Counted from the first letter of the whole stretch, positions 31 to 58,372 are shown. The stretch: 63,818 nt of DNA, filler included, from Kipferlia bialata (GCA_003568945.1; 6 parts of 6 records of this genome joined end to end with filler, not necessarily neighbours in it); one strand, 5' to 3'. The notes: generated by a model from the letters alone, not told the origin. A program made the numbers and translations.

Positions 31-3000
31 TAGCTGCGTCCATTGTCTCCTCTGCGTCCACCACGGCTGGTGTCACCTCAGTGCCACTCACAGTGCGGTA
101 CAGGGGGGACTGGGGGTAGACATTGGAATATGTAAGTGCATATATATATACAAGTATGGTAAAATAGACACTGACAGTACGGTACAGGGGAGTAGGCTAG
201 ATTGCTGGTATTATATGATTCAGATATAAATGAGTATGGAAGCAACATACCTGTGACGACACCTCTCTAGCTATGCGCTCCCTGCCCCCATCCTCCCTAA
301 GGACCTCGAGGGACTCTAGGGCGGCCTGGAGGTTATAAGGATACGTGTAAAACAAATAGTATATCTATCCAAACATTATGGTATAGACATAAATACAAAA
401 AAATATGGATAGGACCTCAAGAGACTCAAGGGCGGCCTGGTATTAGAGGATGGAAAGGATAGTGAGAGACTTCATGAAAGATGATACACGAAAAGATACA
501 AGTATTCTGGTATGATATTGTACCTTGTAGAAGTCTGCCAGGTATCTGTCCCCCTTGGCTACCCTCTCATGCTATCTATTATATATATACACATACATAT
601 ACTCATATATATATACCTACATATGTATACATATGTATATATACCTTGTAGAAGTCTGCCAGGTATCTGTCCCCCTTGGCCACCCTCTCTGCCTTGGAGG
701 TGGTGTCGGGGATGGATGTAACCTAGGTTGAGTATACATAGATTATTAATATAATGAATATAACACATGTGACACAGAGCGAGAGTGGGAATGCGAAAAT
801 GATCATCGGCAAGCTCACGAGCCCAACACTATACCATTGTCAGCCAGGTCACCGATCCGTATATATATACATGGCACTATACCTTATCTGACAGGTCTGA
901 GAGCGCTGACAGCAGCACGTGCTGAGCACCTGTGCATAAGGATAGTGGACGGAGTATAGCCTATTTAAGGGAGTCGATAAAGAGTATTAAGAGAGCTACT
1001 ATTCAAATACAAACTCAATTCTATAGTATACATGTATGACGTGCTGAGCACCTGGCAAGTGAGGGAGTGCTATATATATATATATATATATACATGTATA
1101 TACAGCTGATCATATGGCAATGATGATGAGGGAGTGCTATATATATATACACACATGTATATATGCAGCTGATCATATGACAATGAGGAGGGGGAGGGGT
1201 GACATACCTGTAGTATTAGAGGTGGTAGAATAGCAGAGGACATAGAGAGACAACCAATGTAACACATACCGACTATTCTCTTGTATGCCTCCATCCTGAT
1301 GGCGTTGGGGACCCACTACACACACACACATACACACACACATATATATATATATACATGCACATACTTGAATATACGAATGAGATAACTAATACATACC
1401 GACTATTCTCTTGTATGCCTCCATCCTGATGGCGTTGGGGTCCCTCTCAGTCTCCCCCTCTCCCTCTCCCTCCCCATCTGCGTCTCCTGCATCCCCTCCA
1501 GCAGCAATGAGCATGTTCCTACAGGTGAGGATCATCAAAAATCACAGAATCTATAACCGTCAATAGGTGTTAGTATACCTAGAACAATCAATAGCGTTAT
1601 CAAGTCTAAATCAAGTGGAATGTTAAAGTACAAGAAGGTGCGGGAAATCCAAGTATATTTGTACCTGCGTACAAGTGCCTGACTGTCTGCCTCTAGCTGG
1701 GAGACCTGGGGGGTAAGGTACACATACAATATAATATATCTATAAAAATAAACCATAATATATATATGACAGACGATACTGATTGAACATGTCTGTCTGC
1801 CTCGAGCTGGGAGACCTGGGTGTTAGAGATTATGAGAACAGATACACCGTGCAGGGTATAGAAATACGAATCATTGGTAATGCTTGATATGCATACCTGA
1901 TACACCACCCTAGTATGGTCCACAATGATGCTGACCACAGAGGATGCAATGCCTATAATATACATTATATATATATATACCTGATAGACCACCCTAGTGT
2001 GATCCACAATGATGCTGACGACAGAGGATGCAGTGTCAAGGGGGGTGAGCTGCTTGGTGACAATGTCAGTGACCTGGTGTTTAGGATGTAGAGAGAGAGA
2101 GAAATAGAGCTGCTTGGTTACAAAAAGTACACTGCCAGTGACCTGGGGGTTAATGGGAGTGTTGTGTCCTAACAAGTATACGTATCAAATTCGTACCTCC
2201 CCCTCCACGAGTGCCAGTATACCGGACACTCCCTCCTCCCTGAGTCTATATATACATATATAAGTATACCACTCTCTCTCTATATATAATACATACCTCT
2301 CCCTCCACTAAGGATAGGATGCCTGACACCCCCTCCTCTCTCAGTGTATATATATAAATATATATATGTATATATATAAATATATATGTATAAAGCTAAG
2401 GGTATTGATACTAAATGGGTATACCTCTCCCTCCACGAGTGACAGGATGCCAGACACCCCCTCCTCCCTCAGTATGTATATACACATACATATATATATA
2501 TAGAGAGAGAGATATATATGTAGTTTAGGGTATTGACACTACATGGGTATACCTCGCCTTCAACCAGTGATAGAATGCCTGACACCCCCTCCTCCCTCAG
2601 TATGCGAGGGGGGTGCTTGGAGTCGGAACGGTAGTAGCTAGGGTAAGGGAGAGAGACAGAGACATGGGCAATTGGCTGGTAGATTGCATACTCGTTTCCA
2701 TACCCGATGTCTGTGACAAGTGTGTTGAGCGAGGCAGGGACAAGGGCAGCACGGGACATGCGCTCCTAAGAATAAGGGAGAGAGAGGGAGGGAGAGAGAG
2801 AGAGAGAGAGATGCTGGGACAATGGCAGCATTGATCATACGTTCCTAAATGTAAGAATGGCTATGTATATATACATCAGAAGCATAGTGTGACTATAATT
2901 CCAATACCTTCAGTATGGTCAGTGCCTCTATCACCATGTCCACTAGGGTGTCACGCTTCTCAATGACCTGAAGTTATAATGTGGGTATGTGAGTATATAG

Positions 3001-3735
3001 CTATCAATAATAACAATACATCCTAATAATAGCATGCTTATAGTCATACTGATATACCCACCTGTGCCTTTAGCTCCTCCACCCTCTGTCAACAATCTCT
3101 CTCTATATACATATATACATGTAGTAATACATATGTATATAAATATATCAGATACCCATACCTGTGCCTTGAGCTCCTCCACCCTCTCTCAACCTCTAAA
3201 TACACACATATAGTAATACACACAATCATATAATCATATATATATTTCAATGTCGAATCATGCAGATACCCATACCTGTGCCTTGAGCTCCTCCACCCTC
3301 TGTCAACCTCTAAATACTCATGTATATTCATATACGTATATATACATATATATATATGTGTGTGTGTGAAAAAATGTATATCAGATACGTACCTGTGCCT
3401 TTAGCTCCTCCACCCTCTCTCAACCACTCTCTATATACATAAATACATATATGTATTTATTATTATATGATGCGTACCTGTGCCTTTAGCTCCTCCACCC
3501 CCTGTCAACCCATCTCTCTCTATATACANNNNNNNNNNNNNNNNNNNNNNNNNNNNNNNNNNNNNNNNNNNNNNNNNNNNNNNNNNNNNNNNNNNNNNNN
3601 NNNNNNNNNNCAGTTCAACCATATATCAATATATATGTATCAATAAATGATAGTACCTGTGCCTTGAGCTCCTCCACCCTCTGTCAACCCATCTCTCTCT
3701 CTCTCTATATGTATATACAAATAGTAGCACAAATG

Positions 3736-26883: not shown

Positions 26884-27824
26884 AATCGCCCACGCATCTC
26901 CCTCCTGCTCCCCCACCTGACCTCTCTTCTGTTGGAGGGCATGCACCTGTGTGACACAGACTCACTGGGATCCATCACCACACACTGCACGAGGCTGGAC
27001 TATGTACTTGCATTGCAGGTATATATTGATGTCTATACTACATACACCCTGCACAAGGCTGGACTATATACTAGCACTGGAGGTATACATTGGAGTATAT
27101 AGTAGTGATATTCTGTACCAACCCATTGTATATAGTACACTCTTCCTACCCTCTCATTTTTCTGACCAAACCAGGTCCAGGGTCTTGCCCCCACCCGCCC
27201 CCCCTCCAAGGTTGCAGCTGTTGCCTCTATGTCTGTGTCACAGCCCAAGGAGACGGTCAACTTGCCCAGATGGTGTGTAGTCATATGCTATACACATACA
27301 GTACCAGTGTGTTAGTCAATCATTGTCTAGATATACTAATACCCCAGCACCAGCCTGTCCAGATGGTATGTATGCATGTATATATATATACACCCACCCA
27401 CCCACATATATATACCTCCAATAGTATCCCTGTCTAGATATTCTCACCCCCCAGCACCAGCGTGTCCCTGCTGCAGTGCCCTGCCCTGCCCTGCCTCACC
27501 CTCTATGCACCCATGCTGGACAGCCTGTCACTCCATGCAATGCCATCACTCACTGAGGTATGTGTGTGTATATGTACCCTATACTATACTAGTTTCATAC
27601 CATTTATATATAGCTACTGGTATTGTAAGTGATATACCTGACACCAGGTCAACATTCTATCCCCACAGAGCCAGGCCTTGGGAGTGAACCACGAGGCTGC
27701 GGGCACCCCCTTCTCTCTCTCTCTCTCTGACATGCCTATCACTGCCATCAAGGGCACATTGTGGGACAGCAAGAGACTGAGGGAGGTGGTGGAGAGGGGG
27801 GAGACCACTCTTTCCACAGTGTAG
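26884..27824 (+). CDS. 3' fragment of a hypothetical protein (continuation of the exportin with exons missing, or a different gene)
   Basis: NRPRISLLLPHLTSLLLEG...DYVLALQ|VQGLAPTRPPSK...|...|SQALGVNHEAAG...GETTLSTV-TAG. The splice phase is incompatible with the exon ending at 26780. Confidence 0.6.
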
Positions 27825-28102
27825 GTCTCATAGAGAGAGAGAGAGGTGGAAAGAGAAGTGTGCTCTAGGTGTATCTGGAGAGAAGTGTGAGTATTATTAT
27901 CAATACATGTGTGTAGTGTGTACAAAGAATAGAAACAACGTTGCTTGGTGTGCATATAGTTATTCGGTCCTCTAGAGGTCTGTGACAATCGTGGTGTGAG
28001 TCACAACTTGTCACAGAGTCACTCGATTGTGTTTGATGAATGAAGGGTTGATAGAGAGACACCCGTGTCCACTCCTTCCCTCTCTTTCATGATCCATTCT
28101 GT

Positions 28103-29184
28103 ATGGCCGGTGCTAAGAAGGCCACTGGCACCAAGAAGACGACCAGCAAGAGGGGTACGTGACGTCATAACAATATATTTCTCCTTCCTAGTCTCTCCCC
28201 CTCTTCTTGCAAGCAATGTATGAACCTCCATAGTGACTCCTACACCACTTCTCTCTCTCTCTCCCCCCCCCTCTCTATATACGTTTGTATGTGTCCATAT
28301 CTGCCACTCTTACACCAGGTGTGTCCAAGAAGAAGTATGCCAAGTCTCGCTCTCCCTCCCTCCCTCCCTCTCTCTCTCTCTCTCTCTGTGTCTCTCTCTC
28401 TGTGTCTATATCTCTCTCTCTATACATATATACCTCTTTCACCAGGTGTGTCCAAAAAAAAGAAGTCTGCCTTCCCCATTGTCCGTGTCTCCGCGTCTGC
28501 ACCCCCATGCCCATCCACCAGTACTGACCCAGTCCTTAGTGTTGTGGCACTCAATGTTAATGGAATAAGGTGTATAGTGTTTCTCTTTGCCTAGTATACC
28601 CCCCCTTCCCCCCGCACAGATCACCTCTTCCTCTCCCCCATTGTTTCTCTCTCTCTCACTCCAGGGCTGCCCTTGGTAAGAAGTGCCAGGGACAGACACT
28701 GGCAGAGGTGAGCTATTCTATCCTCTCTCTCTTTCTCTCTATACCCTTCTCCCTATATGCATTCCCAGTAGCGGCTCTGTTGGCAAACTAACCAACTAGT
28801 GGGTTGCACAGGAGAAGCCAGATGTATTCTTCATGGGGGAGACCAAGCTGGGCACGAGGTCAGTTTCTCTCTCTCTCTCTCTCTCTCCCCCCACCTCTCC
28901 CTCATCATCAGTGCCTTCGATCTCTCTCTCTCTCTCTCTCTCTCTCCAGCTCATCATCAGTGCCTTTGACAAGTATGCAGCCGAGTACTGCGTAGATGGC
29001 AACTCCCCCTTCAAGGGCTATGTAGGACACTACTGCTTGCCAGCACCACCAACCAGACAGGGATACGCAGGTGTTGATAGTTATGTATACATATGTATAT
29101 GAATACGTAATTATTATGTATATACATGATTGATATACTCTACTCTGCTACTATGTACATACAGACAGGGATACACAGGTGTTG

Positions 29185-29216
<32 letters not shown>

Positions 29217-31598
29217 ACATACACACATATTCTATCCTTAGGCTCATGTGTGTTCATTAGAACTGTTCTTCTCTCTCTCTCTCTCTCTCGCTATATATAT
29301 ATGTATGTATATATATATATGCAAATATCACCAACCCTTAGGCTCCTGTGTGTTCATCAGATCTGGTGTTGCCTACACTGCGGTCACCCATGGCCTGGGG
29401 GTGGAGGAGCACGATACAGAGGGGAGGTAAGAGATACATAGAAATGGGACTGGTGTAATACGTATACACACTTCCTATATGTATATATAGTATACATACT
29501 ATACTTCTAACATCAGGTTCTGCACAGTTGAGACCCCATCTGGGTACCTGTGCCATGCATACGTGCCCAATGCAGGTAAGGAATATATATATACATACGT
29601 ATATACATATATACGTATATATGTATAGAGTATATATAGAGTATATATGGACATACCTGGGTACCTGTGCCATGCATACGTGCCCAATGCAGGTAAGGAC
29701 TATGTGTATACTGTCATTATATATATATATATATATAGTGTTATATGTATATAGTGTATATCTATGGGTATACCTTTGTACCTGTGCCATTCATATGTGC
29801 CCAACGCAGGTGGGAGACTAGACACATATTCAATGACTCTCTCTTTGTAATCATATATATGTGTGTGTATATATGTGTAATAATATACACATATGTATAC
29901 CTATCTGACCATCCAGGTAGAGGTGCCAAGTCGGGCCAGAAGGGAGAGGCCCTGCCCAACCTGCACTACAGGTATATGTATACTATATATGTATATAGTA
30001 TATATATAGTATATGCATATACAGTGTACAGTGTACTATATATGTATATATGTATATGTAGTATACAAATATATGCAGTGTATGTATATATTGTCTATAT
30101 AGTAGAGGCCCTGCACAACCTGCACTACAAGTACAGTGTGTGTATATGTGTATACTACAGGTACAGTGTGTGTGTAGACAGAGTGAATATATCGATCTAT
30201 CTATGTATATAGTGTCTATACAGAGTGTATATAGTGTGTGAGAGGACTCGTGGTGTTATTGATTGGTATATTGTTGGTATACCAGTCTCACCCCCAGGAC
30301 CGCAGTTCTCTATAGCCCTCTATGTGTATCTGTTGTATATACCCATCTAACCCCCAGGATAGCCGGGTGGGAGGAGACAGTGCGGTCCCACATCGCATGC
30401 CTCAGACTCATGAAGCCAGTCATATACATAGGTACTCTCTCTCTCTCTCATTCCCTCCCTCTCTCTCTCCCTCTCTCTTACTTCTAGGCGATATGAACGT
30501 GTGCCACCAGCCCATGGACATCCATGACTTCAAGGCAAACAGGGGGAAGCCAGGCGTCACAGACCAGGTATGTATATACATATATACGTACATAATGCAT
30601 ATGTAGCGTACTTATTAATGTATCTATTATGTAGCAGGGATAAGCCAGGTGTCACGGACCAGATATATAGTATAGTTTGCGTACATGTATATATTGTGTG
30701 GTATATATAAAGTGGAGTGTTTGTAGTATATGAGTTAATGGTGGGGAAGCCAGGCGTCACAGACCAGGTAGGCACACACGTACCCACACATACATGTATA
30801 TACACAGTATATGTACATGAATGTTAGTTATTACTAGCCGAGAAGACCCACCCCCAGGAGCGCCATGCCATGACCAACCTCATCAGCGACGGTATGATTG
30901 ACTCGTTCAGGTGTGGGATATCATATACATATACTATATACCATATACCATATACATATCAGGTATGGGATATCATATACTGTATTATATACTGATAGTA
31001 TACTACAAAGTATATAATATATATATATAATATAATATATACAATATATATAGTATGACGGCATGATTGACTCGTTCAGGTATGGGATATCGAATACTGT
31101 ATTAAATACTGATAGTATACTGCAGAATATATACACAATATACAATATATATAGTATATATATTATGACGGCATGATTGACTCGTTCAGGTGTGGGATAT
31201 CGAATACTATATTATATTCTTATAGTACACTACACAATATATACACAATATACAATATATATAGTATATATATTATGACGGCATGATCGACTCGTTCAGG
31301 TGGGTGGTGTATTTTCATATCTGTATCAGAATACGTGTTGCGTATTGACGCAGTAGCCTCACCCTCAGACACCTGTACCCTGATGAGGTCAAGTTCAACT
31401 GTCTTATAGTATTTACGAATGTATCAGTGTATTCATCACNNNNNNNNNNNNNNNNNNNNNNNNNNNNNNNNNNNNNNNNNNNNNNNNNNNNNNNNNTGTA
31501 CATAACTCTCCTGACCCCTTAGGCACCTGTACCCCGACGAGGTCAAGTTCAGCTGGTTCAGCAACTTCTCGAGCAGCAGGGCCATGAAGAGAGGTATG

Positions 31599-31650
<52 letters not shown>

Positions 31651-32219
31651 ATATATCCTTCTCTTCTCACTCCAGGCTGGCGTCTGGACTATGTCCTCTC
31701 TCTCTCTCTATATATATGCCTCTCTGTTATATTCCTCTTCTGACTCTAGGCTGGCGTCTTGACTCTGTCCTCTCTCTCTCTCTATATATATGCCTCTCTG
31801 TTAGTATTCTATCTCTGACTCTAGGCTGGCGTCTGGACTATGTCCTCTCTCTCTCTCTATGTTTGTATCCTCTCTGTTTGTATTCAATCTCTCACCCCAG
31901 GCTGGCGTCTTGACTATGTCCTTGTCGACTCCAACCTACTCGGCAAGGTCAAGGACTCTGAGATATTCGACGACCATAGGTATGTATTGATACTATTACA
32001 AATACTATTAATACGCATACATTCCATCTCATACTGTTATACATGGTCAAGGACTCTGAGATATTCGACGACCATAGGTGGGAGACCTTTGATGGCATTC
32101 TACAGTAGTTCTCTCACACACAAATATCAATACTTGCACCATATACATGTATGTATACATACTAACCCCCCAGGGACTGGAGTGACCATGTGCCTGTCAG
32201 GCTCACACTCACAGAGTGA
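28103..32219 (+). CDS. APEX1: AP endonuclease 1 / exodeoxyribonuclease III (EEP family), complete
   Basis: Basic N-terminus MAGAKKATGTKK, then ALNVNGIR, PDVFFMGETK, GYAG, HDTEGR, AYVPNAG, GDMNVCH, DSFRHLYP, FSWFS, GWRLDYVLV and SDHVPV-TGA (32217-32219). This is the full ExoIII/APE1 motif set. Confidence 0.95.
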
Positions 32220-32612
32220 TATGGATAGATTGACACTCTTGGAGGCTAATTCAATAATTCATTTGTTACACGAACACGTATTCGGACGAACACGTATTCG
32301 GATAGATACACTGATGGAGTTTTGCAATGAGAACCAAAGGCAAAGAGTACATCTCACGGTCAACTTGTCCAATAGACTCACCCACAACTCTCTATTACGA
32401 TGAGGGGTCTACCAAATAGACAATAGACACGTACCAAAGACACTAAACAAACACCAAACGAAACATACAATACACAGTTACACTGGGGTCAACATACAAC
32501 TCAACAACAACACGTCGGTACAAAGGATACACACGCAAAAGGTTCACACCATGTGAGGACACACTGCTACTAGTGTGCCACTCTCTCTCTCTCTATCTCT
32601 CTCATAATTAGC

Positions 32613-33119
32613 CTACATGATGGTGTGCCTCTTGTTACCTGGATGGTGGCCGGGGCTGATGCCTGGGGTCAATAGGAGTGCATTATAATATACATACACG
32701 CAGGCCCTATATATTTATGAATACAAATATTCTATTGGGACTGATGCCTAAGGCCAATATGGGAGAGGTACACTATGATACTTGCACATGCAGACACTAT
32801 CCTACGAATATGAATATACACTGTCTATACCTAGGTTAGAGTCGTGCATGGATATGGCCGGGGACTCGGCATCCAGTACAGTCCTGGGGGTTAGTGACGC
32901 ATATATTCATAGTTGTATGTAGAGAGAGAGAGAGAGAGAGCAAGAACAACACAAAGGGATATAAGAGAGTATGAAGCTTGAGAGTGACAGAGAGAGAGAG
33001 AGAGAGTACCTGGGTGTGCGTGGCAGGAGTGCATCACTCCCCAGCTGCATAGCCCCACTCTTCCTACGGCCAAGTGCGGCCCTGGAGTTCTGGTCCAGCT
33101 GCGCCTGGGGTTAAGCAGG

Positions 33120-33161
<42 letters not shown>

Positions 33162-33656
33162 AGGACTAAGGGTCAGGACGGACTTCACCTACACCATATA
33201 TACACTATACCATATATACCCTGTACACAATACACACCTTAGTGTCCTGCAGCAGCCCCATCCACCTGTCTGCGTCTGCCTGGCACCTGGCCTTGAGAGA
33301 CACCAACACCCCAGGGCACACTATCTGGTGCATCAGGGGGTCATCCCCTGGGCCAGGCCACACAATCTTGGCGTGCTTCAGGGGGAGCTGGGCCTTATAT
33401 TAGAACATAGTGGATATAGATATTCATAATGTCATCATATACTATGTGAACTACACACCTTGAGCCTGTACTTGTGTGCCCCTCCCCTGAGACTCCTCTT
33501 GATGCCGTGTTCTCCACTGTCCTTGTCCTTGACTACAAGGAGTAGGTCAGTCAATAGGAACACATGCCTCGGCTTCATGCCCTCCTCCTCGGGCTCCTCG
33601 CCTGAGGGGTAAGAGAGAGAGAGAGAGAGAGCGACATACTTCCATAATATTACGAA

Positions 33657-33687
<31 letters not shown>

Positions 33688-34861
33688 TACCTGGATCGTG
33701 TCTGGGGCTGAGGAATGCCGAGTCGGGTCCACTGCTGAGCAGGTCTGCCATGTCGTTGGGAGAGACAGTGGTCTTGGACACCTCCATCATCATCTCGGAT
33801 ATCACACTCCTGAGGTGGGAAGGAGTATAATGCACATGAGTATGCAAATATGTATACACCAGGTACACTACGTTAGTTCAATGCCCACCTGTGGGGCTGG
33901 ATGAGGTCAGGGGGGGCACTCTTGAGGTTGCGCTGCAGCTCAAGAACCTGGGGGGTGAGTTAGGGTTACTCCAATAGTGTGCCAAAACCTAGTCACCAAC
34001 ATACTGCCGCCTCACCTTTGTCTTTCCCTCCTCCACCCTCTTTGCGTCGTTGATATATTTACATACACATACATATAATATATATATATATATACATAGT
34101 ACTTCAATACTCTCATACCTTTGTCTTTCCCTCCTCCACCCTCTTTGCATCGTTGATGCCAGTCACAGTGGCAGTCAGCTTCTCAATGGCAGTGTTCATG
34201 TCCTGGGGTGAGTGGAAAAAGCTATACAAACATATAATACTATACTATATATATTATATATACAGTGGTATTGGACAGATTCTCAATGTCAGTGGTCTAG
34301 GGTGAGATACGCAGTGAAATAGTGAACACAGTGATTACAACGTAGAGATAGTGTGATATGCTTGTACCTCCCAGTCCGGGTGTGCCTCTGTCATCTAAAG
34401 TACATACGTATATGTAGAAGATCATACATCTAGAAATACTAATGTATGCATATGCACATTACCTCCCAGTCTGGGTGTGCCTCCGTCATCTTCTTCCTAA
34501 ACTCCAGCAGCAGCAGCCTGAGCCTGGGCAGCCTCTGGATGGGCTCGATCAGAAGGTCATCGATCCTAGGGGTCAGAGAGAGATTTACATAGACACATAC
34601 CAAGAATGATACATTGTAACACCAGTCCACATACACACATAGTATACATCTGGTCACACATCAGTACCTATATCCATGCTCAGCCGACATTGCCGTCAGT
34701 GCCTTCTTGACATCTGAGGGTGCATCGTGCTGGAGGAAGTTGGACACCTCGGCATGGGACCGCACATAGGGCTTGTACAGGTTGAACTCTTGGGGTGAGA
34801 GAGAGGAGGGGGGAGGGGTAAGACAGAGGGAGAGAGGACATAGGGCTGTACAGGTTGAACT
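32613..34861 (-). CDS. Dbl-family RhoGEF, DH-PH domains (3' part)
   Basis: FNLYKPYVRSH...|IDDLLIEPIQRLPRLRLLLLEFRKKMTEAHPDWE|DMNTAIEKLTATVTGINDAKR (DH), then RHVFLLTDLLLVVK...ADRWMGLLQ (PH). TAG at 32613-32615. Confidence 0.92.
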
Positions 34862-34908
34862 CTAGGGGTGGGGGGGGGGGGGGGGAGAAATAAAAACACA
34901 CAAACCAA

Positions 34909-35008
34909 NNNNNNNNNNNNNNNNNNNNNNNNNNNNNNNNNNNNNNNNNNNNTTAATTAATTAANNNNNNNNNNNNNNNNNNNNNNNNNNNNNNNNNNNN
35001 NNNNNNNN
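34909..35008. other. Artificial scaffold linker
   Basis: N44-TTAATTAATTAA-N44. Confidence 0.97.
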
Positions 35009-35059
35009 CTTCCCCATTTTTCCACAACCCCCCCCCCCCCCCCCCCCCCCCCACTCCAG

Positions 35060-35456
35060 GCTGGAGGTCGAGGGCCGTGCTGACATTGAGCGTGCCCTGG
35101 GGGATGTGGCCGAGCGCATAGCCACCCTGGAGAGGGACATCCAGCAGCTGACCGAGAAGGAGGCAGGGCGGTGCTCCCTGTTGGAGCAACATGTGGAGGA
35201 GCTGAGGGCTGCGTCCACCCTGGCCGAGTCCTCTCTCACTGGCATGATGCAGACATGGGCATGCAGGGTGGGGCAGGTGGAGGAGGCTATGGCGGCACAG
35301 TGCACGGCAGAGAGCAGGGGTCGCCCCGAGGCCCGGCAGGCCCTGCTGGAGAGGGAGGCCATGCTGCAGAGGATGGTGGACCAGTCAGACAGGGATGTGG
35401 AGGCCATCCTGGCTGCCAGGGTCAGGCTCTGCAACGACAGGCTGGAGAGTGGGTAG
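35060..35456 (+). CDS. Last exon of a coiled-coil protein
   Basis: Acceptor ccactccag followed by a GC-rich open frame LEVEGRADIERALGDVAERIATLERDIQQL...RLESG-TAG. Confidence 0.7.
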
Positions 35457-35851
35457 AGGCAAGGGTGCTTCTTGAACATAACTGGTCTTGCACCTGTTTG
35501 TTTGACTCTGGTCGTACTTGCCCCCGTCTTTCGACCCACTCCTCATAGGACATGTATGTGACTTCCCACCAACGTGTCGCATTGGGAGGACTAATGGTTA
35601 CTGTGCTTCAACCATGTCTGATATTGACTCTTGCTCTGCACACCCATTGGCTGTCACTGGAAGGATTAGACAGGAGACTTGTCTCTGATCCTGTGCAGTA
35701 CGGGCACAGATTCCGCACTTTGTAGGACTCAACAGGGAGTGATGAGTAATGATTGCATATGCTAGCAGCCGGCAACACGAGTCAAGTGAATAAAAGTTCC
35801 ATTCTATTGTAAAACACACACAAACTAAACGTTGCTATTCTTGACTACTGC

Positions 35852-37225
35852 TCATGCCATCATGTCCCGCACTGTGACAATCTCTGTGTGGGTGGCACCC
35901 CCAGACAGCACCAGGTCCAGCTTGATGCGCAGGGCCTTGGTCCCAGCCAGCCTGATCTGCTGGGTGATGGGGCCCTCGTTCATGCCGGTGGTCTTGCCAG
36001 AAACAGGCTGCAGCTGCAGGGTGGCGTTGGGGGGCTTGGAGAAGGCCAGAGACACCGACACCTTGGGCAGCACGGTGGTGACGCGGAAGGTGGCCACGAT
36101 GGCGTCCCCCTTCATGTTGGCTGTCTTGCCGATTGTGACGCCGTGCCCCTTGTAGACCACAGTCTCGGAGGGCACAGCAGGGGACGACAGCTCAGACATC
36201 AGGTCGCCCATGCCGCTGTTGCCACCGCTCCTGGCTGGGGAGGGGGTGGGTGCTGGGGACAGACCCATCAGCACATCCATCAGGTCCTGCTCGGCAGGGG
36301 GTGCCTGGGCTGCTCCGGAGTCCCCGTCCATGCCCAGGTCCACAAGGTCTCCTCCCATGTCCTGCCCAGCCTCGACCTCCTCCTCCTCCTCCTCCTCGTT
36401 GCCTGCCCTGCCTGCCTCAGTCTCCCTCAGGGGAGGGGCGTCGATGGGCTCCAAAAGGGCCATAGCCAGTGCCCCGGGGGCACACAGCACAGCACTGTAC
36501 TCCACCACCCTCTTCTGGGTCTCCACGGCCAGGCTGTTGCGGAGGGGACCGTACATGGCGCCGATGCTCTGCTTGGTCTCGGGTATCTTGGCAGCTATCT
36601 TGCCCAGGGCAGTCACCACCAGGTCCCTGCACCCTGGGGTGTCCAGGTGGGTGGAGATCACAGACACAAGCTCCTCAGACGTCACGTGGGGCTCCCCGGC
36701 CAGACAGGACTCGGGGTACTCTCCCAGCACAAACACAGCCGTGGTAATGAGCTCCTTGCTGCACTGACCACCCTGTAGGGACAGGAAGAGCTGCTTGCAG
36801 GCGTGTTGCCTAAGGACTGGCTGCCTCTGGAGGAGGGAGGCGGTGTTGGCGATGATGTCGTGGCCCACAGACTGCAGGGCGGCGGCGTCTGTCTGCAGCA
36901 TCCTCAGCAGGATGTCAAAGTGCCACTTGGGGGAGGGGGCGTAGTGCTCGGCAATGAAGGCAACGGAGGTGATGAGCTCCGGCCTCAGCTCGTCGACTGT
37001 CTCGTCCAGGGTCTGCAGCAGATCGGCCACCAGGGCCTTGGCAGATGATACATCGGCCAGGAGGACGAGGAGGGCCAGGGCACGCCTACGCACAGAGAGA
37101 GAGGTCTCGCTCAGACAGAGCAGGACTGTCCTGCGGTGCCTCTGGAGGGAGGCCACGTTACCAGATGCCCTGACCAGCTTGGCCAGGTGGGACAGAGCAG
37201 CATAGCGCACAGTGGCATCCTTGTT
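35852..37225 (-). CDS. AP1G1: AP-1 complex gamma-adaptin, C-terminal ~457 aa in one exon (trunk end, hinge, GAE ear)
   Basis: NKDATVRYAAL...LQRHRRTVLLCL...SVRRRALALL...AEHYAPSPKWHFD...VFVLGEY matches the gamma-adaptin trunk. The acidic hinge has DLMD-type motifs and the ear has LQLQPVSG...ITQ...LRIKL. Acceptor ctcacttcag. Confidence 0.9.
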   Translation of the reverse strand, partial: NKDATVRYAALSHLAKLVRASGNVASLQRHRRTVLLCLSETSLSVRRRALALLVLLADVSSAKALVADLLQTLDETVDELRPELITSVAFIAEHYAPSPKWHFDILLRMLQTDAAALQSVGHDIIANTASLLQRQPVLRQHACKQLFLSLQGGQCSKELITTAVFVLGEYPESCLAGEPHVTSEELVSVISTHLDTPGCRDLVVTALGKIAAKIPETKQSIGAMYGPLRNSLAVETQKRVVEYSAVLCAPGALAMALLEPIDAPPLRETEAGRAGNEEEEEEEVEAGQDMGGDLVDLGMDGDSGAAQAPPAEQDLMDVLMGLSPAPTPSPARSGGNSGMGDLMSELSSPAVPSETVVYKGHGVTIGKTANMKGDAIVATFRVTTVLPKVSVSLAFSKPPNATLQLQPVSGKTTGMNEGPITQQIRLAGTKALRIKLDLVLSGGATHTEIVTVRDMMA

Positions 37226-37280
37226 CTGAAGTGAGAGGGGGTGGGGGGGGGGGGGGGGGGGGGCTTTCTTTTTTTTGCCA

Positions 37281-39072
37281 CTGACAGAGACGTGGCTGGA
37301 GAGAGGGCAGCTAGGTATGGTCTTATGGAAGGACATGTAATTGTACGCTTGATTTATGAGTCTATTTCACCAAGTGAGCAGTCTAACTATCTGCAGTGTT
37401 GTGTAGTGTTGTAAACCTTGTATATACCCTGACCCGCCACTATGTCTGTGGCAGATACGATGTGCACTTATATGTATATCTTCTGTATATATACAATAAC
37501 ATACATACGTATACCATATATACTTATAGCTAACTCAGGATGTCTGTGGCAGATACCATGTTTGCCCTGATAGCCGTGCCTGCCCTGCTGAGACTGGAAC
37601 ACGTGGCAGGGTATGTTATAATGTATAGTACATACATATATATACACACACATATATATAGTAGTAGTAGTGTGTATTCCGCAGTATATATACTGCCCTA
37701 CTGAGACTGGACGTGGCAGGGTATGATGGTGTATATATACTATATATGTATATATGTACTAATAGTGTACATTGCCAGGACTCCGTATTCATGGATTTTG
37801 GATTATCTATATGGTATTCATATTGTATTCATAGTGAACATATACTGTGCCTCACTCCGGCCGTGTCTCAGCCTCTCCCTAGACTATGAATGTATGGGTG
37901 TATATGATCATACATTGGTGTATATCAAAGAGATACACCTCTCACCCCAGCCGTGTGTCTGCCAAGACTCTATATACATGCGTGTATATATATTATATGG
38001 TATAAGTATATGGTATATAACTATGCCTCACCCCAGCCGTGTCTCCGCCTCTGCCAAGAAGACCTTCCAGCCAGCCAGGGTCTATGCATGCCTGGACTTC
38101 ATAGGTACAGGGGTATATATATATATATATATTGATGGGTACATTAGGTTATGTGTATATACATTTTATACATATATAGTTTGAATTTACATACAATATG
38201 AATATATAGAAATATGCAAATATATGTCTTTATTAATCTATGCATGTCTGGACTTCATAGGTATAGGGGTGTATAGACTATATACTATATATACTATATA
38301 GACTCTATAGACTCTATATACTATATAGACTATCTATTATTGTGTTGTCAATATCTCTCTATTGGTCTATGCATGCCTGTACTTCATAGGTACAGTATGT
38401 GTGTATATGAACACATTCATTATATGTATATATATATACCTGTGGATATATATATGTATGTATACATATATTCTTGTGAAAGTGTGTATATGGAGATGTA
38501 CATAATATATCTCCCTCACCTGTCATGTTCCCTGGCCTTCACTTGACACCGTCATCCATATATACCACTATGTCCACTATATATCTGTCCAGTATACATG
38601 TATATTTATACCCTCACCTGCCAGGCTCTCTGGCTCATCATAGGTACATTAGGTTATGTATGTTTATATATTCATTTTCATAATATGTATCTCCCTCACC
38701 TGTCAGGCTCCCTGGCCCCTCTGTCCGGACAGATAGAGGCACTGTTCAGAAGGGCAGGTATGCAGATATGTGCAGATATATACATATATATATATATATA
38801 TATAGTATAGTGCTATTATTATTAAATGTATTTTGATACCCTCTGTCCGGACAGATAGAGGCACTGTTCAGAAGACCAGGTGGGTATATATATGTGTGTG
38901 TGTGTATATGTAGGTCGATGCCTTGTTCATCAAGAGACAGGTATAGTTGGACATGGATATGTATATATATGTGTGTGTGAGGCGGATATTCATCTCTCTT
39001 TCTCTATATATGTGTGTCATACACCTCACCTTAGCCCGTGACCGTTCTCTCTCGTCTGAGGCCGATGGGCTT

Positions 39073-39116
<44 letters not shown>

Positions 39117-39868
39117 CATTGGCGTGTATATGTATACTCTTATACCTCACCTTAGCCCGTGACCGTTCCCTCTCGTCTGAGGCCGATGGGCTAGACCTGT
39201 GTCAGGAGCTGTACTCGAGGACAGTGGCCTTAATTAGGTAGAGATGATGTATATGTATATACTATAAGTCATCTATATATGTATATGTATATATATATCT
39301 TGTAGGAGCTGTACTCGAGGACAGNNNNNNNATATGTATATGTATATATATATCTTGTAGGAGCTGTACTCGAGGACAGTGGCACTGATCAGGTATTATA
39401 CTGTACTAACCATACCTATTACAAGTGCATATATATATATACATCTATATATATACTATCTATATCTACCTATATATATACCATATATACTGTACTCGAG
39501 GACAGTGGCACTGATAAGGTATGGATGATGTACTACATACTATGTACACTGTATACTATGTACTACATACTATGTACACTGTATACTATGTTATACATAC
39601 TATGTACTATCTATATCTACCTATATATATACCATATGTACTGTACTCGAGGACAGTGGCACTCATCAGGTATGCTACACTCACTTTATATACTGAATCT
39701 CTCTCTATTTTCATCCTATGTACTGTAGACTCTTGGATAGTTGCCCTGATCTGGTATATACATGACATCATACTGTTATACTGTGTGTATATGCTATAGG
39801 GAATGCACTCTAGGATACGTCTAACCCCTCCCAATGGACAGGCTCATAGCGTCTCTCTGCATATGTGT

Positions 39869-39912
<44 letters not shown>

Positions 39913-40017
39913 ACCCCCTAGGGACAGGACGTCTGGGGCACTCCAACTGGCCAAGCAGGTTAGGGAAGATGGATATATGTGTATATATATATTGTATATA
40001 TTATATATATTGGGTGG

Positions 40018-40049
<32 letters not shown>

Positions 40050-43000
40050 GTAAGTACTGTAAACATCAAACTGCCCAAGCAGGTGGGGGAGGGTGTATCC
40101 AGATATTCAGACCAGCACCATGTCTACTATGTATATGTAGTATGTATTTGTAGTATATATGTATATGTATATACATAGTGGCAGTGTGACTCCAACTGGC
40201 CAAGCAGGTTAGGGAAGATGTACATTTACAACACAGATATACATTGATACACAATTTATGACAGAGAGCATTTGACCCTTTCCTTTACCTGTGCAGAAGA
40301 CTAGCATGTTATGTGTATATAGGGTATATATATTGGAAGAATGCTAATATCAGACCATCACCAGTGCCAAGCCCACCAATATATGTATATATATAGAGAA
40401 AGAGAGAGAGAGTATATGTATGTATGGAGTGTATATGTGAAGTGAAAATATGGGAAGTTGCTGATCCAGTGCCAAGCCCACCAATATATTATATATATAT
40501 ATATACATGTATATATATGGATGCGACATACCCTTTCTCTATGCAGGCCAAGACCTTGTAGTAGTAGTACATTGGATATATTCGTAATAACCCTTATGCC
40601 AGACCAGCACCAGTGCCAAGCCCACCAACGTGTGTGGTGTCCTGCCTGCATGTTTCCAGGGACTGAGGAGACTGTCCATTCTGTCACAGTACAGGTACAA
40701 TGGTATATATGTACTATATACACATTACACTATATACTATAAATACTACATATAGTGTGTGTTCACATGTATACTGTATAGTGTCTGATATTGATACTGT
40801 CCATTCTGTCACAGTACAGGTACAGTGTATATATATATAGTACATCCACTGTATATCCATACTAACACCCTAGGTCCATGCTGCAGTCCATGGACGGCCT
40901 GTCCTTCTCATCTCTCTCTCTCTATATATATATGTGTGTGTGTATATCTATATAGATATGTGTCCTCACCCCCAGGTCCATGCTGCAGTCCATGGACGGC
41001 CTGTCCTTCTCCTCTGTGATAGATGACAGCATAGCCATACTCCTCAGGCAGATAGAGAAGGGGGTGCAGGTATATATATAGTGTATATATATATTTATAT
41101 ATATACATGTATGTATATATATATGGTATGTATATTTAGTGTGATAGATGACAGCATAGCCATACTCCTCAGACAGATAGAGAAGGGGGTGCAGGTATAT
41201 ATAGTATATATATAATATATATAGTATATATATATATATGATATGTATATATATATATATGACAGCATAGCCACACTCCTTGGACAGATAGAGAAGGGGG
41301 TGCAGGTGTGGAGGGGGTATAGTCTGTATGTATACGGTATACTTCTTCATGTATATGCATACCCACCCCAGGACCACAGGGACATGGATATTTATATTGA
41401 CTCCAGATATGTATGTGTGAGTGCAGTATACAGTTGTCTATACTACTGGATGTCTATCTCTATTGTGAGAGTGTGTATGAATATGTGTGTTTTGTGTATA
41501 TACTCCTATGTACATACCCACCCCAGGACCACAAGGACCCTGTGGCCAGAGGGGTGTTCCAGCTCAACAACATCAGCTACATCAGGTGGGGGTATATATG
41601 TATAGTGCATAGATTGAGTATGGATGGATAGGTATTACATACATAGTATTATTCTTTGCCTATATGAATGTGTATTGTATGACATATGTTATTATACCCC
41701 AACCCACCAGGACCACGCTCCAAGAGCATCCATACCAACATCATATTTCATGTATTTGTGCGTCTTTGTGTGCATATGTATTGACACATACCCTGACCCT
41801 CCAGGACCACCCTCCATGAGCACTCCTCCCTGTCACTCGGGTCAGACAGCCTCAGGTACCAGTCCTTCTTACACTAGACTCCTGTACACTTACATTCTCG
41901 TCGTTGGATCCATATAAGTGTATGATACTATACTATAGTGTAGTGACAGTCCCTGGGGTCAGACAGCCTCAGGTACACACTGTGTATAGAGTGTATAGAG
42001 TACATTTTTGTATATATATAGTATGTATACTGCCTCTTGGGTCAGACAGTCTCGAGGTACGGATAATGGTGTATTTGTTTTATGTAGAAGATGTGTTTGA
42101 AAGGAGGTTATACACATATGTGACCCCAGGCGTGCCCTGGATGCGAGGCTGGACTCCACCCTTGACACATACATAGACCAGTGCTGGGCAGGGGCAGTCA
42201 ACTACCTGAGTGTGGAGAAGGTGTGTATACACATATAGAAATATATATATGACATGTACAGATGGTATAAAGTAATATACATATAGATTATGGATAGTAC
42301 TATTAGAGTATATCTACTTGAGTGTGGAGAAGGTGGGTGGGGTGTGTATTGTAGCACTATGTATGTATACCCCCATGCCTCTGAACGTCTGTGTCTCTCT
42401 CTTTGCACACATACAAGTCCTCCCCCCCAGATCCACGCTGTGCTTGAGAGGACTGACCCCTCCCTGGGTGGCACAGTGGGGTCACCATCACCAGACATGG
42501 AGGACAGGTATGGGTGTATGTGTATCCATGTATATATGGATAGAGATGTATACTCTAAATACATGGTGGGGTCATCCCCAGACATGGAGGACAGGTATAT
42601 ACATCTATGGATATACATGTGTGTGTATCTGTCTGTCCATGTATATCTGTTGATTCATATGTATACGCTGGTGGGATCACCATCCCCAGACATGGAGGAC
42701 AGGTGTGGAGGCATATATGGATATGGTTGTATGTATATATACATTAACTTCATGCCCCCACCCCAGTGAGACTGAGCCCCTGGTATTGATGTATATATGT
42801 ATGGGTAGATATACTATATTTTGTATATATGTATGGGTATCCCTCCCACCCCAGTGAGACTGAGCCCCTGGGTGCTGTCACCAGAGAGTCATCCCTGGTA
42901 GATGACACAGACAACCAGGTGTGGATATAGATGTATGTATATTAGAGAGAGAAGGGAGAGAGAGAGAGAGAGAGAGAGAGTGTGTGTGTGTCATCCCTGG

Positions 43001-45621
43001 TGGATGACACGGACAACCAGGTGTGGATGGATGTGTATATATATATATATATATATAGTGTGTGTGTATAGAGAGGGGGAGAGAGAGAGAGAGAGTCATC
43101 CCTGGTGGATGACACGGATAACCAGGTATAGACGTGTTTAGACATATATATATATATTTGAAAGAGAGAGAGAGAGAGAGGGAGAGAGAGAGTCATCCCT
43201 AGTGGATGACACGGACAACCAGGTGTGGATATGTGTATAAATGTGTATGTATTATTGCATGTGTATTGTCAGAGGATGTCTTCACCCCCCACCCCAGACT
43301 CACAACGCAGAGTTCAGTGTCTCTCCCATTCTCTCTCTCTCTATATCTATCTCTATATATACACCCCACCCCACCCCCACCCCAGAGTGCCATCACCGAG
43401 TCCAGCCTCATGAGCAATGTGACAGCAATGAGCATGGCAACAGGTGTGGATACACACATATATATCTTTGAATTATAATGAATCAACCTGTATACGTGTA
43501 TATCTCTGTTCCATATTGGTGTATACCCCCCCCCCTCACCCCCAGCCAACATGTCCAAGGGCATATTTGTATATGTACATATGTATCTTCATGTGTGTAT
43601 ACCCCCCCCTTCCCCCAGCCAACATGTCCAAGGGCATATATGTATATGTGCACATATGTATATAGTGTATACGCGTGTGTATAATATCCACACCCCCACC
43701 CCCCAGCCAACATGTCCAAGGGTGAGGCCAGGAGGCACCTCAAGGCACACGCACTCACAAAGAAGGTACCGATACATGTTAGTATATATCTATATATATG
43801 TGTGTGTGTCTACACTCAAGGCACACGCACTCACAAAGAAGGTATAGACCCAACCTGTTCATGTGTACCTATACTGGTACTATATACTGTATATATACTG
43901 ATGCTGATACTCACCCCCAGGTCATCAAGACTGCCATGAGAGGGTTCCAGAGAGAGATTGCCCTGCTCAGCGAGAAGCACAAGGTGGGGGATGGTGTCTG
44001 TATACATATACATACATATATACACTCATATATACTAATACTGATACTGATATTGAGTGAGAAGCACAAGGTGAGGGATACCAGTCTCTCCCTTCCGTCT
44101 GTCTATATATATATCCCTCTAGCTCTCCGCTCACCCCCAGCTGTACCGCATCTCATTCCCCAGACACTGTGTATATGTATATATGTACATATATATATAT
44201 ATATGCATGTATCTGTATATGTATCTGCCTCAGTTCTATTCATATGCTCACCCCCAGCTGTACCGCATCTCATTCCCCAGACACTACATATGTGTATACT
44301 ATGTATGTACATATATATATATAGATATATATGCATGTATCTCTATGTATATCTGCCTCACCCCCAGCTGTACCGCATCTCATCCCCCAGACACTATGAA
44401 TATGTATATACTATATATATATATATATATATAGTTATATCTACATATGCTCACCCCCAGCTGTACCGCATCTCCTTCCTCAGACACTGTGTATATGTAT
44501 ATACTATATATGTATATATATATATGTATATATAGTATTATACTCACCCCCAGCTGTACCGCATCTCCTTCCCCAGACTATATATGTGTGTACTATATAT
44601 GTATATATATATATATATATATATGCATGTATCTGTATGTGTCTCTGCCTCACCCCCAGCTGTACCGCATCCCATTCCCCAGACACTACATATGTGTATT
44701 GATACATGTATATATATATATATATATATAGATATATCCCCCCACCCCTCACCCCCAGCTGTACCGCATCTCCTTCCCCCAGCTGAGTGTCAGGGTGGCA
44801 CAGACAGTGGCAGGGCATGTGGTGCAGAGGTGAAGACAATATATGTATATATATGCATATATATATTGTATATGCATGTATACTATACATACTATACTAT
44901 GTCAGAGTGGCACAGACAGTGGCAGGGCTCGTGGTGCAGAGGTATATACAGTGTATGTCTATATGTGCATTTGAGGTTAGAGAGAGAGAGAGAGAGTGTG
45001 TGTGTGTGTGTGGCTGGGTACGTAGTACAGAGGTATGTGGATGGAGTGTGTATACTCTTGACATGACTGCATACTCTTACCCCCAGATACGAACAGTACC
45101 GTCTGGTCTGTGAGAGTCACACCCTCTGTCAGATGCCATTCAGAAGGTATAGAGGGGATATATATATGTACATATATATATATATATATATACAGTATAC
45201 AGTATATACTATTGTCACACCCTGTGCCAGATGCCATTCAGAAGGTGTGGCATATGTATATAAAGTAGTCAGCGACTGTGTGTATTTGGCTGTAGTTATG
45301 TGGAAATATGGGATAGTGTTGTGCTCTGTGCAAGTGACACTCATATATTTCTGCATCGACTACGTATGACACGTGTAGCACCCTGGATATGTACTATATG
45401 CAATGAGTGTTTTGAATATGTACCCATATTGCATGCAAAATACTCTCACCCTAGGTATGACACGTGTGGCACCATGGATGTCCTGAATACTAATATATAT
45501 GTATATATATTTATTAGTATGTGATGTGTGTATGGTATGATGATATGTGTGCACTGACCCCAGGTATGACACGTGTGGCACCATGGATGTGCTGGAGAAT
45601 GAGATCAAGAGGATGTTCTAG
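37281..45621 (+). CDS. EXOC7: Exocyst subunit Exo70-like (5'-truncated, ~19 exons)
   Basis: DPVARGVFQLNNISYIR (Exo70 FLxNNxxYI), YIDQCWAGAVNYL, VIKTAMRGFQREIALLSEKHK|LYRISFPQLSVRVAQTVAGHVVQR|YEQY, and C-terminal MDVLENEIKRMF-TAG follow the order of Exo70 C-terminal motifs. Confidence 0.7.
44130..44775 (+). repeat. Tandem array of 7 copies of acceptor + exon start (CTCACCCCCAG|CTGTACCGCAT...), ~100 bp period
   Basis: Copies at ~44130, 44247, 44357, 44450, 44543, 44649 and 44748. Only the last continues into the full exon and donor. Confidence 0.95.
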
Positions 45622-46561: not shown

Positions 46562-46661
46562 NNNNNNNNNNNNNNNNNNNNNNNNNNNNNNNNNNNNNNN
46601 NNNNNTTAATTAATTAANNNNNNNNNNNNNNNNNNNNNNNNNNNNNNNNNNNNNNNNNNNN
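46562..46661. other. Artificial scaffold linker
   Basis: N44-TTAATTAATTAA-N44. Confidence 0.97.
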
Positions 46662-58209: not shown

Positions 58210-58309
58210 NNNNNNNNNNNNNNNNNNNNNNNNNNNNNNNNNNNNNNNNNNNNTTAATTAATTAANNNNNNNNNNNNNNNNNNNNNNNNNNNNNNNNNNN
58301 NNNNNNNNN
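58210..58309. other. Artificial scaffold linker
   Basis: N44-TTAATTAATTAA-N44. Confidence 0.97.
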
Positions 58310-58372
58310 ATATGTACACATACATATGGTAGGGATAGTAACAGTAGTACACATATACTATGTACATGGATA

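What the first reader, a model, noticed from the sequence alone, without database searches (positions are those of the whole stretch)
150..45600. Genome-wide 'exon echo' system: introns hold tandem half-exon copies that diverge mainly at synonymous sites
Seen: in most intron-rich genes the real exon is flanked by 1-6 partial copies about 20-70 nt long, spaced ~80-130 nt apart by (TA)n/(GA)n filler. The polarity was consistent wherever I traced it: acceptor+exon-start copies lie upstream, exon-end+donor copies lie downstream, and only one copy has both splice sites. Many copies differ from the real exon heavily at silent positions but barely at replacement sites, although most lack one splice site or frame and should not be translated. 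Others show replacements or indels (e.g. 15970-16015, 22345-22495), so there is a decay series. Established: untranslated duplicates should mutate without regard to codon position. Inference: (a) the echoes are an archive of divergent alleles captured by unequal crossing-over in a hyper-polymorphic recombining population (cryptic sex); (b) frequent loop-out or gene conversion swaps echoes into the live exon, so selection keeps them protein-equivalent; or (c) a DNA- or RNA-level overlap-joining mechanism uses them. I know of no description of this pattern but cannot search the literature.
Basis: partly seen in the sequence, partly recalled or inferred. Interest (0 to 1): 0.92.

Follow-up and report, generated by a model that had tools for sequence, protein, structure and literature searches.

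The report
Intronic half-exon copies archiving alleles
In the free-living protist Kipferlia bialata about half of the introns examined carry tandem copies of half of the neighbouring exon that differ from it mostly at silent positions, likely because recombination keeps copying in working versions from very different individuals, which would point to hidden sex and extreme genetic diversity.

Summary
Real. The first contig encodes Kipferlia bialata KIPB_005292; my gene model matches it at 901/901 residues. Of 150 introns, 80 hold half-exon copies (172 echoes, arrays of 1-6, median spacing 104 nt). None is a whole exon. DNA contigs bridge echoes in cis at full depth; RNA skips them. The polarity follows from tandem duplication across one splice site plus likely exon-definition splicing.

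The surprise is codon structure. Echo versus exon differs at 4.3% of 0-fold and 23.8% of 4-fold sites (ratio 0.18, CI 0.12-0.26). Echo-echo gives 0.14 and echo-private changes 0.22. Toy simulations reach this only with exchange between haplotypes at synonymous diversity of about 0.2-0.27. Best reading: echoes archive formerly working alleles in a hyperdiverse, recombining species.

Against: no second allele seen; the RNA-checked region alone gives 0.50 (0.32 trimmed); no other isolate available. The scan noted similar arrays in a sea urchin gene, there put down to selection on the live exon only; that null fails here. Ten literature searches found no description.

The parts
30..11384 (-). Gene A = K. 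bialata KIPB_005292 (hypothetical, no Pfam hit), 36 exons, 47 echoes; strongest silent bias (0-fold 21/1027, 4-fold 104/293, ratio 0.058)
2194..2476 (-). Three donor-type echoes of exon 2553-2637; 25 of 26 differences silent
3060..3682 (-). Six donor-type echoes of exon 3794-3841, shared breakpoint, assembly gap inside the array
4480..4670 (-). Two 66-nt donor-type echoes of exon 4712-4833 with 10 and 15 differences, mostly silent
4883..5298 (-). Four detected donor-type echoes of exon 5379-5494; 20 of 20 differences silent
10580..10920 (-). Four donor-type echoes of exon 10973-11085, one shared breakpoint; 20 of 21 differences silent
11769..12630 (+). Gene B2 (3 exons) with echoes, including copies of the stop-codon end downstream of the last exon
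12991..16379 (-). Gene B1, 9 exons, 15 echoes, includes decayed copy 15972-16012
16572..19135 (+). Gene C, p23-like co-chaperone (name recalled; single exons gave no Pfam hit), 12 exons, 6 echoes, no silent bias (5/114 vs 1/29)
19524..21805 (-). Gene D, 6 exons, 13 echoes; four acceptor-type echoes at 20756-21009
22050..23055 (-). Gene E, ubiquitin-conjugating enzyme (PF00179, E 9.5e-5), 5 echoes, includes decayed 22350-22496
23498..27824 (+). Genes F1/F2, RNA-checked; RNA joins 24980 to 25279 and 25358 to 25657, skipping echoes 25033-25095, 25146-25195, 25425-25470 and 25555-25588
28103..32219 (+). Gene G, exonuclease III-like (name recalled; no Pfam hit on single exons), 14 exons, 16 echoes
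32613..34863 (-). Gene H, RhoGEF (PF00621, E 2.8e-7), 10 exons, 4 echoes
37364..45621 (+). Gene K, 18 exons, 44 echoes (ratio 0.228); six acceptor-type echoes at 44138-44680 before exon 44759-44829
54415..63550 (.). Genes P (plus), M and N (minus) outside the finding's range: 8 echoes in 30 introns, more decayed

Best explanation
The echoes are spliced-out tandem duplicates of about 100 nt that span one splice site, and their exonic part is likely refreshed with working alleles from very divergent haplotypes, so that each array would be an archive of formerly translated alleles. Step 1 (shown by geometry): a head-to-tail duplication across an acceptor leaves a partial copy upstream, and one across a donor leaves it downstream. 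Step 2 (skipping shown for four echoes by direct RNA joints; mechanism inferred): the spliceosome uses only the copy with both sites, as in exon definition. Half-copies are harmless; whole-exon copies and acceptor-before-donor interleaving are presumably purged. Step 3 (inferred): arrays grow mainly next to the live exon by unequal exchange, which keeps the original breakpoint. Step 4 (inferred): alleles have fast-changing TA/GA-rich introns, so homology is confined to 30-70 nt of exon. An echo then pairs with the other haplotype's live exon about as well as the true allele does. Unequal crossover or short conversion tracts write protein-tested alleles into echoes and live exons. Replacement differences then measure only the short time since the last refresh (about 0.03), and silent differences measure allelic diversity (about 0.2-0.3). 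This needs outcrossing or parasexual exchange, and a near-homozygous or haploid sequenced strain.
For: Ratio 0.179 (CI 0.12-0.26; 0.132 after trimming 10 nt at breakpoints; 0.284, CI 0.20-0.40, without gene A) against a simulated null of 0.55, minimum 0.44 in 300 runs. Echo-echo 0.137; echo-private 0.221, Fisher p 2e-15 against equal rates. Triples: 4-fold private changes live 56, near 53, far 69 of 489; 0-fold 2, 23, 44 of 1761. Both echoes carry own silent changes: sum of minima 9, star expectation 12.1 (P 0.08), ladder 2.9-4.6 (P 0.001-0.025). Far echoes are more decayed (29 vs 11, p 0.006) and the near donor flank is more like the live flank in 18 of 21 arrays. Breakpoints lie within 3 nt in 70 of 97 pairs; 0 of 27 two-type introns are interleaved. 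Exon and donor flank are decoupled: rho 0.03; the 12 alignable flanks differ by 0.115 while their 4-fold sites differ by 0.317. GT kept in 87 of 92, AG in 62 of 70, branch motif in 50 of 62 echoes vs 132 of 158 live. Simulation: ratio 0.08-0.18 at p4 0.19-0.30 only with inter-haplotype exchange and pi4 0.17-0.27. Precedent: crossovers favour exons in hypervariable Schizophyllum (PMC4209137, abstract). Fornicata lack Rad51A and metamonads lack NHEJ (PMC8516963, passages).
Against: No second allele seen: no differing letters listed in DNA or RNA contigs over 23352-29500, while the genome paper infers diploidy from k-mers (PMC5874029). The diversity needed equals or exceeds the 0.20 record of S. 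commune (PMC4576712, abstract); gene A needs about 0.35. The RNA-checked region is not clearly below the null: 0.495 (CI 0.33-1.03), trimmed 0.32 (0.14-0.58); singleton arrays 0.33 (0.21-0.49). Genes C, P and F2 give 1.27, 0.75 and 0.58 on small counts. The four-gamete test is weak: 1 of 7 pairs. Acceptor arrays do not show the near-flank trend (3 vs 5). The simulation is a toy (N=300, whole-tract conversion, 3-4 replicates, ten settings). The alignable-flank subset is selected for similarity.
Confidence: 0.55

Rival explanations
1. Echoes are used directly: a DNA-level loop-out or an unknown RNA joining step regularly puts echo sequence into the message, so protein selection acts on them.
For: Replacement changes are scarce on echo branches; splice sites and branch motifs are kept; replacement changes are mildly conservative (BLOSUM -0.22 vs -0.67, p 0.013).
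Against: Swap-splice geometry at only 7 of 166 echoes. RNA equals the live copy and no echo-skipping DNA joint is listed over 23352-29500 (contigs drop rare forms). 14 of 55 diverged echoes have 60% or more replacement changes, and 20 of 172 have gaps, many not multiples of three.
Confidence: 0.12
2. Snapshots plus an exon mutator: echoes are cis copies taken from the live exon at different times, and live exons mutate five or more times faster than echoes.
For: Explains silent-only live-private changes (30 silent, 6 replacement), a homozygous strain and flanks less diverged than 4-fold sites.
Against: Predicts a ladder with neutral private changes on the youngest echo. The closest echo has 9/192 four-fold vs 10/741 zero-fold private changes (p 0.007), and the ladder is rejected at P 0.001-0.025. 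I know no such mutator (own knowledge).
Confidence: 0.12
3. Donors are hidden paralogues or homeologues (old polyploidy, hybrid origin, cryptic species) rather than alleles of one population.
For: Gives silent-biased, star-like differences without record diversity in one population; tri-allelic 4-fold columns, 18 of 489.
Against: No second copy of KIPB_005292 among 7991 scored candidates or 1.84 billion representatives; no divergent copy laid at 92% likeness. Up to five distinct versions per array need many donors.
Confidence: 0.08
4. Cis gene conversion or loop-out in a clonal lineage, with second-order selection against harmful echo mutations.
For: Short direct repeats invite exchange; 27 of 172 echoes are identical to the live exon.
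Against: Four cis-only simulated settings gave ratios of 0.53-1.11. Singletons differ from their exon at 18% of 4-fold sites, too much for rapid cis exchange.
Confidence: 0.06
5. Ordinary dead duplicates; the silent bias comes only from selection on the live exon.
Against: Pooled ratio 0.18 with 0 of 2000 bootstraps at or above 0.5; echo-private ratio 0.22 where 1 is expected.
Confidence: 0.03
6. Assembly artefact: haplotypes of a mixed culture stitched in tandem.
For: Short-read assembly; all 5 internal N gaps lie beside echoes; run X1 may be the source sample.
Against: Separately assembled X1 contigs span 25147-25577 (depth 487) and 26886-27361 (depth 396), each across a filler-to-mid-exon junction, at the depth of neighbouring listed contigs (345-458). 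X1 holds 0.94 of sampled words of 1-3500. Stitching would give whole exons, not polar halves.
Confidence: 0.04

Closest known systems
Human F7 intron 7 37-bp VNTR with 5' pseudo-sites (PMC1557585, abstract read)
   Same: Tandem repeat whose first unit spans an exon-intron boundary; downstream donor copies are intact but silent; the most upstream donor is used.
   Different: One locus with identical pseudo-sites. Here 80 of 150 introns, both donor and acceptor types, units of about 100 nt, and codon-structured divergence among copies.
Tandem genomic duplication within genes as a route to intron gain (PMC3443670, passages read; Gao and Lynch 2009 seen only as a reference title)
   Same: Small head-to-tail intragenic duplications tolerated through splicing.
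   Different: No new intron arises; existing introns lengthen (median 294 vs 98 nt) and the copies keep protein-level identity.
Silent-cassette gene conversion, Borrelia vls (PMC11499132, search listing only; VSG and chicken pseudo-V recalled)
   Same: Untranslated partial copies beside an expressed copy that stay close to it in coding terms.
   Different: Those are one-way donors that diversify a surface protein. Here ordinary genes, unchanged proteins, and a live exon that is not a mosaic of its copies.
Exon-focused recombination in hypervariable Schizophyllum commune (PMC4209137 and PMC4576712, abstracts read)
   Same: Synonymous diversity near 0.2 and crossovers confined to conserved exons are the conditions my model needs.
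   Different: The abstracts mention no intronic half-exon arrays; diversity there is measured, here only inferred.
Tandem exon duplication and mutually exclusive exons (recalled)
   Same: Adjacent exon-derived copies under protein constraint.
   Different: Those copies have both splice sites and are spliced in; 0 of 172 echoes do.

Membership tests
Splice-junction-spanning tandem repeat (F7 IVS7 type) | Head-to-tail units that include one exon-intron boundary | tested here: met
   158 of 169 hits are polar half-exons, 0 have both ends
Splice-junction-spanning tandem repeat (F7 IVS7 type) | Intact pseudo-sites that stay silent | tested here: met
   GT kept 87/92, AG 62/70; two RNA joints skip four echoes
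Splice-junction-spanning tandem repeat (F7 IVS7 type) | Near-identical units of fixed period | tested here: not met
   Spacing 75-129 (10th-90th percentile); donor flank p 0.53 vs 0.66 unrelated
Silent-cassette gene conversion (vls/VSG type) | Partial untranslated copies beside the expressed copy | tested here: met
Silent-cassette gene conversion (vls/VSG type) | Expressed copy is a mosaic of the cassettes (one-way conversion) | tested here: not met
   56 of 489 four-fold columns live-private; singleton p4 0.177
Silent-cassette gene conversion (vls/VSG type) | Cassettes diversify the protein | tested here: not met
   0-fold 4.3% vs 4-fold 23.8%
Duplicated or mutually exclusive exons | Copies carry both splice sites | tested here: not met
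   0 hits with both ends
Duplicated or mutually exclusive exons | Copies appear in mRNA | tested here: inconclusive
   No differing letters in RNA contigs over 23352-29500, but contigs drop rare forms
Introner or mobile intron elements | One element dispersed among unrelated genes | tested here: not met
   Self-matches cluster under 400 nt; distant matches are short, low-complexity or splice-signal stretches
Programmed excision between direct repeats (ciliate pointer type) | Excised DNA form coexists with the unexcised form | tested here: inconclusive
   No echo-skipping joint among the listed DNA joints over 23352-29500; 6 joints not shown
Hyperdiverse outcrossing species (Schizophyllum type) | Synonymous diversity of 0.1-0.2 or more among isolates | not testable with these tools
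   No second isolate found; proxy p4 between copies 0.24-0.29
Hyperdiverse outcrossing species (Schizophyllum type) | Crossovers or conversions concentrated in exons | tested here: inconclusive
   Exon-flank decoupling; four-gamete 1 of 7

The most novel reading that the evidence does not exclude
A single K. bialata genome carries in its introns an ordered archive of tens of thousands of formerly working alleles, written by exon-confined recombination in a cryptically sexual species with synonymous diversity of 0.25-0.35, the highest known for a eukaryote; archived halves are sometimes recycled into the live exon. Population genetics, splice-site choice and sex in a Giardia relative could be read from one genome.
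Probability: 0.4. Interest if true: 0.93.

Novelty: new variant of a known kind. Interest (0 to 1): 0.82.

Why it matters
Sex and population diversity in fornicates (the group of Giardia) are long-open questions; the echoes give a testable record of exchange between very divergent haplotypes from one genome. They are also a large natural experiment in splice-site choice: intact proximal acceptors and distal donors are ignored in a protist with 100-nt introns and a reduced spliceosome (87 of 174 proteins, PMC6679479, passages read), which argues for cross-exon recognition. Echo-bearing introns are three times longer, so the process is a likely contributor to this genome being twice the size of Carpediemonas membranifera's. 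Even if the allele model fails, untranslated half-exons that keep their amino acids need a new explanation.

Tried and rejected
No whole genome held, so no genome-wide count. No RNA holder listed as such; X2 behaved as spliced RNA when laid. Reads were laid only on 23352-29500, so gene A has no direct RNA check; X2's 0.12 share of words in 1-3500 fits the 0.127 expected from exons but cannot tell echo from exon. Two metagenome scans for other isolates found nothing. KIPB_005292 has no other cluster member or homologue; P0009 aligns over only 15 residues and was discarded. Idea that an exon copy was inserted into its own middle (upstream-echo end equals downstream-echo start): significant under 3 of 4 nulls but P 0.38 under the within-set relative null, so not used. 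GC/AT asymmetry (0-fold 2.6:1, 4-fold 0.92:1) as support for allele capture: dropped, because polarised echo-private 4-fold changes are also AT-leaning (29:13). Donor motif scarcity after acceptor echoes (0.84 vs 2.45 per kb) was not tested for significance. Pfam on 20 single exons or ORFs: hits for 4, one of them weak. Gao and Lynch 2009 not held. Look-ups of earlier findings by sequence and place were empty; one search gave an unrelated note.


Full report
SOURCE. The window is six contigs joined by N linkers. A 38-residue exon found one full match among 1.84 billion representatives, P0008, which is Kipferlia bialata KIPB_005292 on an 11,578-nt contig, the length of block one. A Kelch ORF in block five has K. 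bialata paralogues as its only hits. The species' genome paper (PMC5874029, parts 1-3 of 6 read, supplements not seen) reports a short-read assembly of 51 Mb, 124,912 introns and k-mer peaks suggesting diploidy; the parts I read do not mention intronic exon copies.

GENE MODELS. A small gene finder plus manual curation gave 14 models, 164 exons and 150 introns, without internal stops. Gene A equals the deposited protein at 901 of 901 residues. Eleven displayed RNA joints match gene F1. The other models rest on reading frame and splice signals, two of them with Pfam hits.

THE OBSERVATION. Adjacent exon-intron pairs match at score 30 or more in 36% of 294 cases; controls give 0.65% of 4287 and 0.28% of 2478. 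Of 181 hits at threshold 28, 9 were dropped (cross-assigned, chimeric or low-complexity), leaving 172 echoes in 80 of 150 introns and 13 of 14 genes. Arrays: 76 single, 25 double, 6 triple, 4 quadruple, 2 of six. Polarity holds in 158 of 169 filtered raw hits; none has both exon ends. Echo introns have a median of 294 nt, echo-free ones 98 nt.

REAL DNA, SPLICED OUT. Over 23352-29500, DNA contigs of run X1 span 25147-25577 and 26886-27361 at depths 487 and 396, like their listed neighbours, each across a filler-to-mid-exon junction (only the longest pieces were listed). RNA contigs of X2 join 24980 to 25279 and 25358 to 25657. They use the first donor and the last acceptor and skip four echoes with intact sites, and show no differing letters. 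X1 may be the source sample, so long reads are still needed.

POLARITY IS GEOMETRY. A head-to-tail duplication across an acceptor must leave the partial copy upstream; one across a donor must leave it downstream (inference from the arrangement). What selection shapes is what is missing: whole-exon copies (0), and acceptor echoes placed before donor echoes (0 of 27 introns with both types). Ignoring the nearest splice-site pair is what exon definition predicts (definitions in PMC3488318, passage read).

CODON STRUCTURE. Over 5429 sites there are 309 silent, 180 replacement and 4 stop differences; 0-fold 147/3456, 4-fold 217/912, ratio 0.179 (CI 0.125-0.26 by exon bootstrap); spectrum-corrected 0.20. 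The right null is not 1: silent changes also accrue on the live exon, giving 0.55. The data lie far below it, also without gene A (0.284, CI 0.20-0.40) and after trimming breakpoints (0.132). Echo-echo is 0.137 and echo-private 0.221. Results against: the RNA-checked region gives 0.495 (CI 0.33-1.03), trimmed 0.32 (0.14-0.58); singletons 0.33 (0.21-0.49); genes C, P, F2 1.27, 0.75, 0.58 on small counts. Echoes are heterogeneous (p 2e-6): of 55 with four or more differences, 26 have at most 25% replacements and 14 have at least 60%. So some echoes are plainly decaying.

SHAPE OF THE HISTORY. In live/near/far triples, 4-fold private changes are 56/53/69 of 489 and 0-fold 2/23/44 of 1761: star-like at silent sites, with a thin decay layer on echoes that is thicker on far ones (29 vs 11 with one triple per array, p 0.006). 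A snapshot ladder is disfavoured (observed 9; ladder 2.9-4.6, P 0.001-0.025; star 12.1, P 0.08). Breakpoints are shared within arrays (70 of 97 pairs). Donor flanks next to the live exon resemble it more than far ones (18 of 21), a trend not seen for acceptor arrays (3 of 8). Flank and exon divergence are uncorrelated for donors (rho 0.03). At 10334-10385 the flank is 29/30 identical while the exon part has five silent differences, which suggests exon-limited replacement.

MECHANISM. In toy forward simulations (ten settings) four cis-only settings gave 0.53-1.11. Exchange between haplotypes gave 0.08-0.18 with p4 0.19-0.30 when allelic diversity was 0.17-0.27; at low diversity it gave either too little divergence (p4 0.11, ratio 0.25) or a ratio of 0.52. 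I therefore favour: seed duplication, concealment by exon definition, proximal growth by unequal exchange, and refresh from live alleles of divergent haplotypes (0.55). Supporting context: crossovers favour exons in hypervariable Schizophyllum (PMC4209137, abstract); fornicates have lost Rad51A and keep two Dmc1 paralogues, and metamonads lack NHEJ (PMC8516963, passages). The cost is diversity at or above the 0.20 record (PMC4576712, abstract) and a strain that shows no second allele where I looked. Rivals: direct use of echoes (0.12), exon mutator with snapshots (0.12), paralogue or hybrid donors (0.08), cis second-order selection (0.06), assembly artefact (0.04), plain dead duplicates (0.03).

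NOVELTY. Ten searches of the held library (titles and abstract starts seen unless stated otherwise) returned no description of such arrays in Kipferlia or of codon-biased half-exon arrays elsewhere. Subscription journals and supplements were not covered. The structure is a variant of known junction-spanning tandem duplications. The density, the two polar types and the sub-neutral replacement rate in untranslated copies are what is new. It works partly like silent-cassette systems but fails their membership tests.

VERDICT. Observation confirmed; interpretation (a) partly supported, (b) and (c) not. New variant of a known kind, interest 0.82. A panel of isolates would decide it.

Noticed in passing
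window 11579-11678, 23252-23351, 34909-35008, 46562-46661, 58210-58309: Five identical N-linker-N joins: the window is six separate contigs; the first (11,578 nt) equals the contig length recorded for KIPB_005292.
   Followed up: yes
window 26781-26883: Poly-C run with a frame break; the RNA contigs for the two sides each continue by 2.0-2.6 kb of sequence not in the window, so this is likely a misjoin of two genes.
   Followed up: partly
all gene models: Branch motif sits very close to the acceptor (branch A 7-9 nt before the exon in 125 of 133 scored); acceptors 118 CAG, 36 TAG, 3 AAG. Resembles the fused branch and acceptor signal of Giardia and Trichomonas (recalled).
   Followed up: partly
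window 12188-12226: A copy that joins an internal piece of one exon directly to an internal piece of the next exon; the only true polarity exception; could be a deletion inside a two-exon duplicate or an RNA-templated copy.
   Followed up: no
window 12492-12630 and 19448-19479: Echoes of terminal exons that include the stop codon and lie in the 3' flank; one has a different stop codon at the same place.
   Followed up: partly
window 46662-58209: Intron-poor block with long ORFs (Kelch-repeat proteins with K. bialata paralogues at 63% and 54% identity; a 517-aa ORF with a P-loop-like motif at 47415-48968) and few, decayed echoes.
   Followed up: partly
window 35855-37225 (-): Intronless 457-aa C-terminal exon of an adaptin large subunit (best hit AP-1 gamma-like, 28% identity) in an otherwise intron-dense genome.
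   Followed up: partly
window 17787-18864 (+): Gly-Met-rich tail of the p23-like gene is built of similar short exons, possibly whole-exon duplications tolerated in a disordered tail.
   Followed up: no
window 1055-1210 (-): Duplicated intron segment with an acceptor-like site at about 1209 that matches no neighbouring exon; possibly an old decayed array.
   Followed up: no
26 exons with both echo types: The upstream echo's end and the downstream echo's start lie within 7 nt in 13 of 26 exons; not robust to the strictest null.
   Followed up: yes
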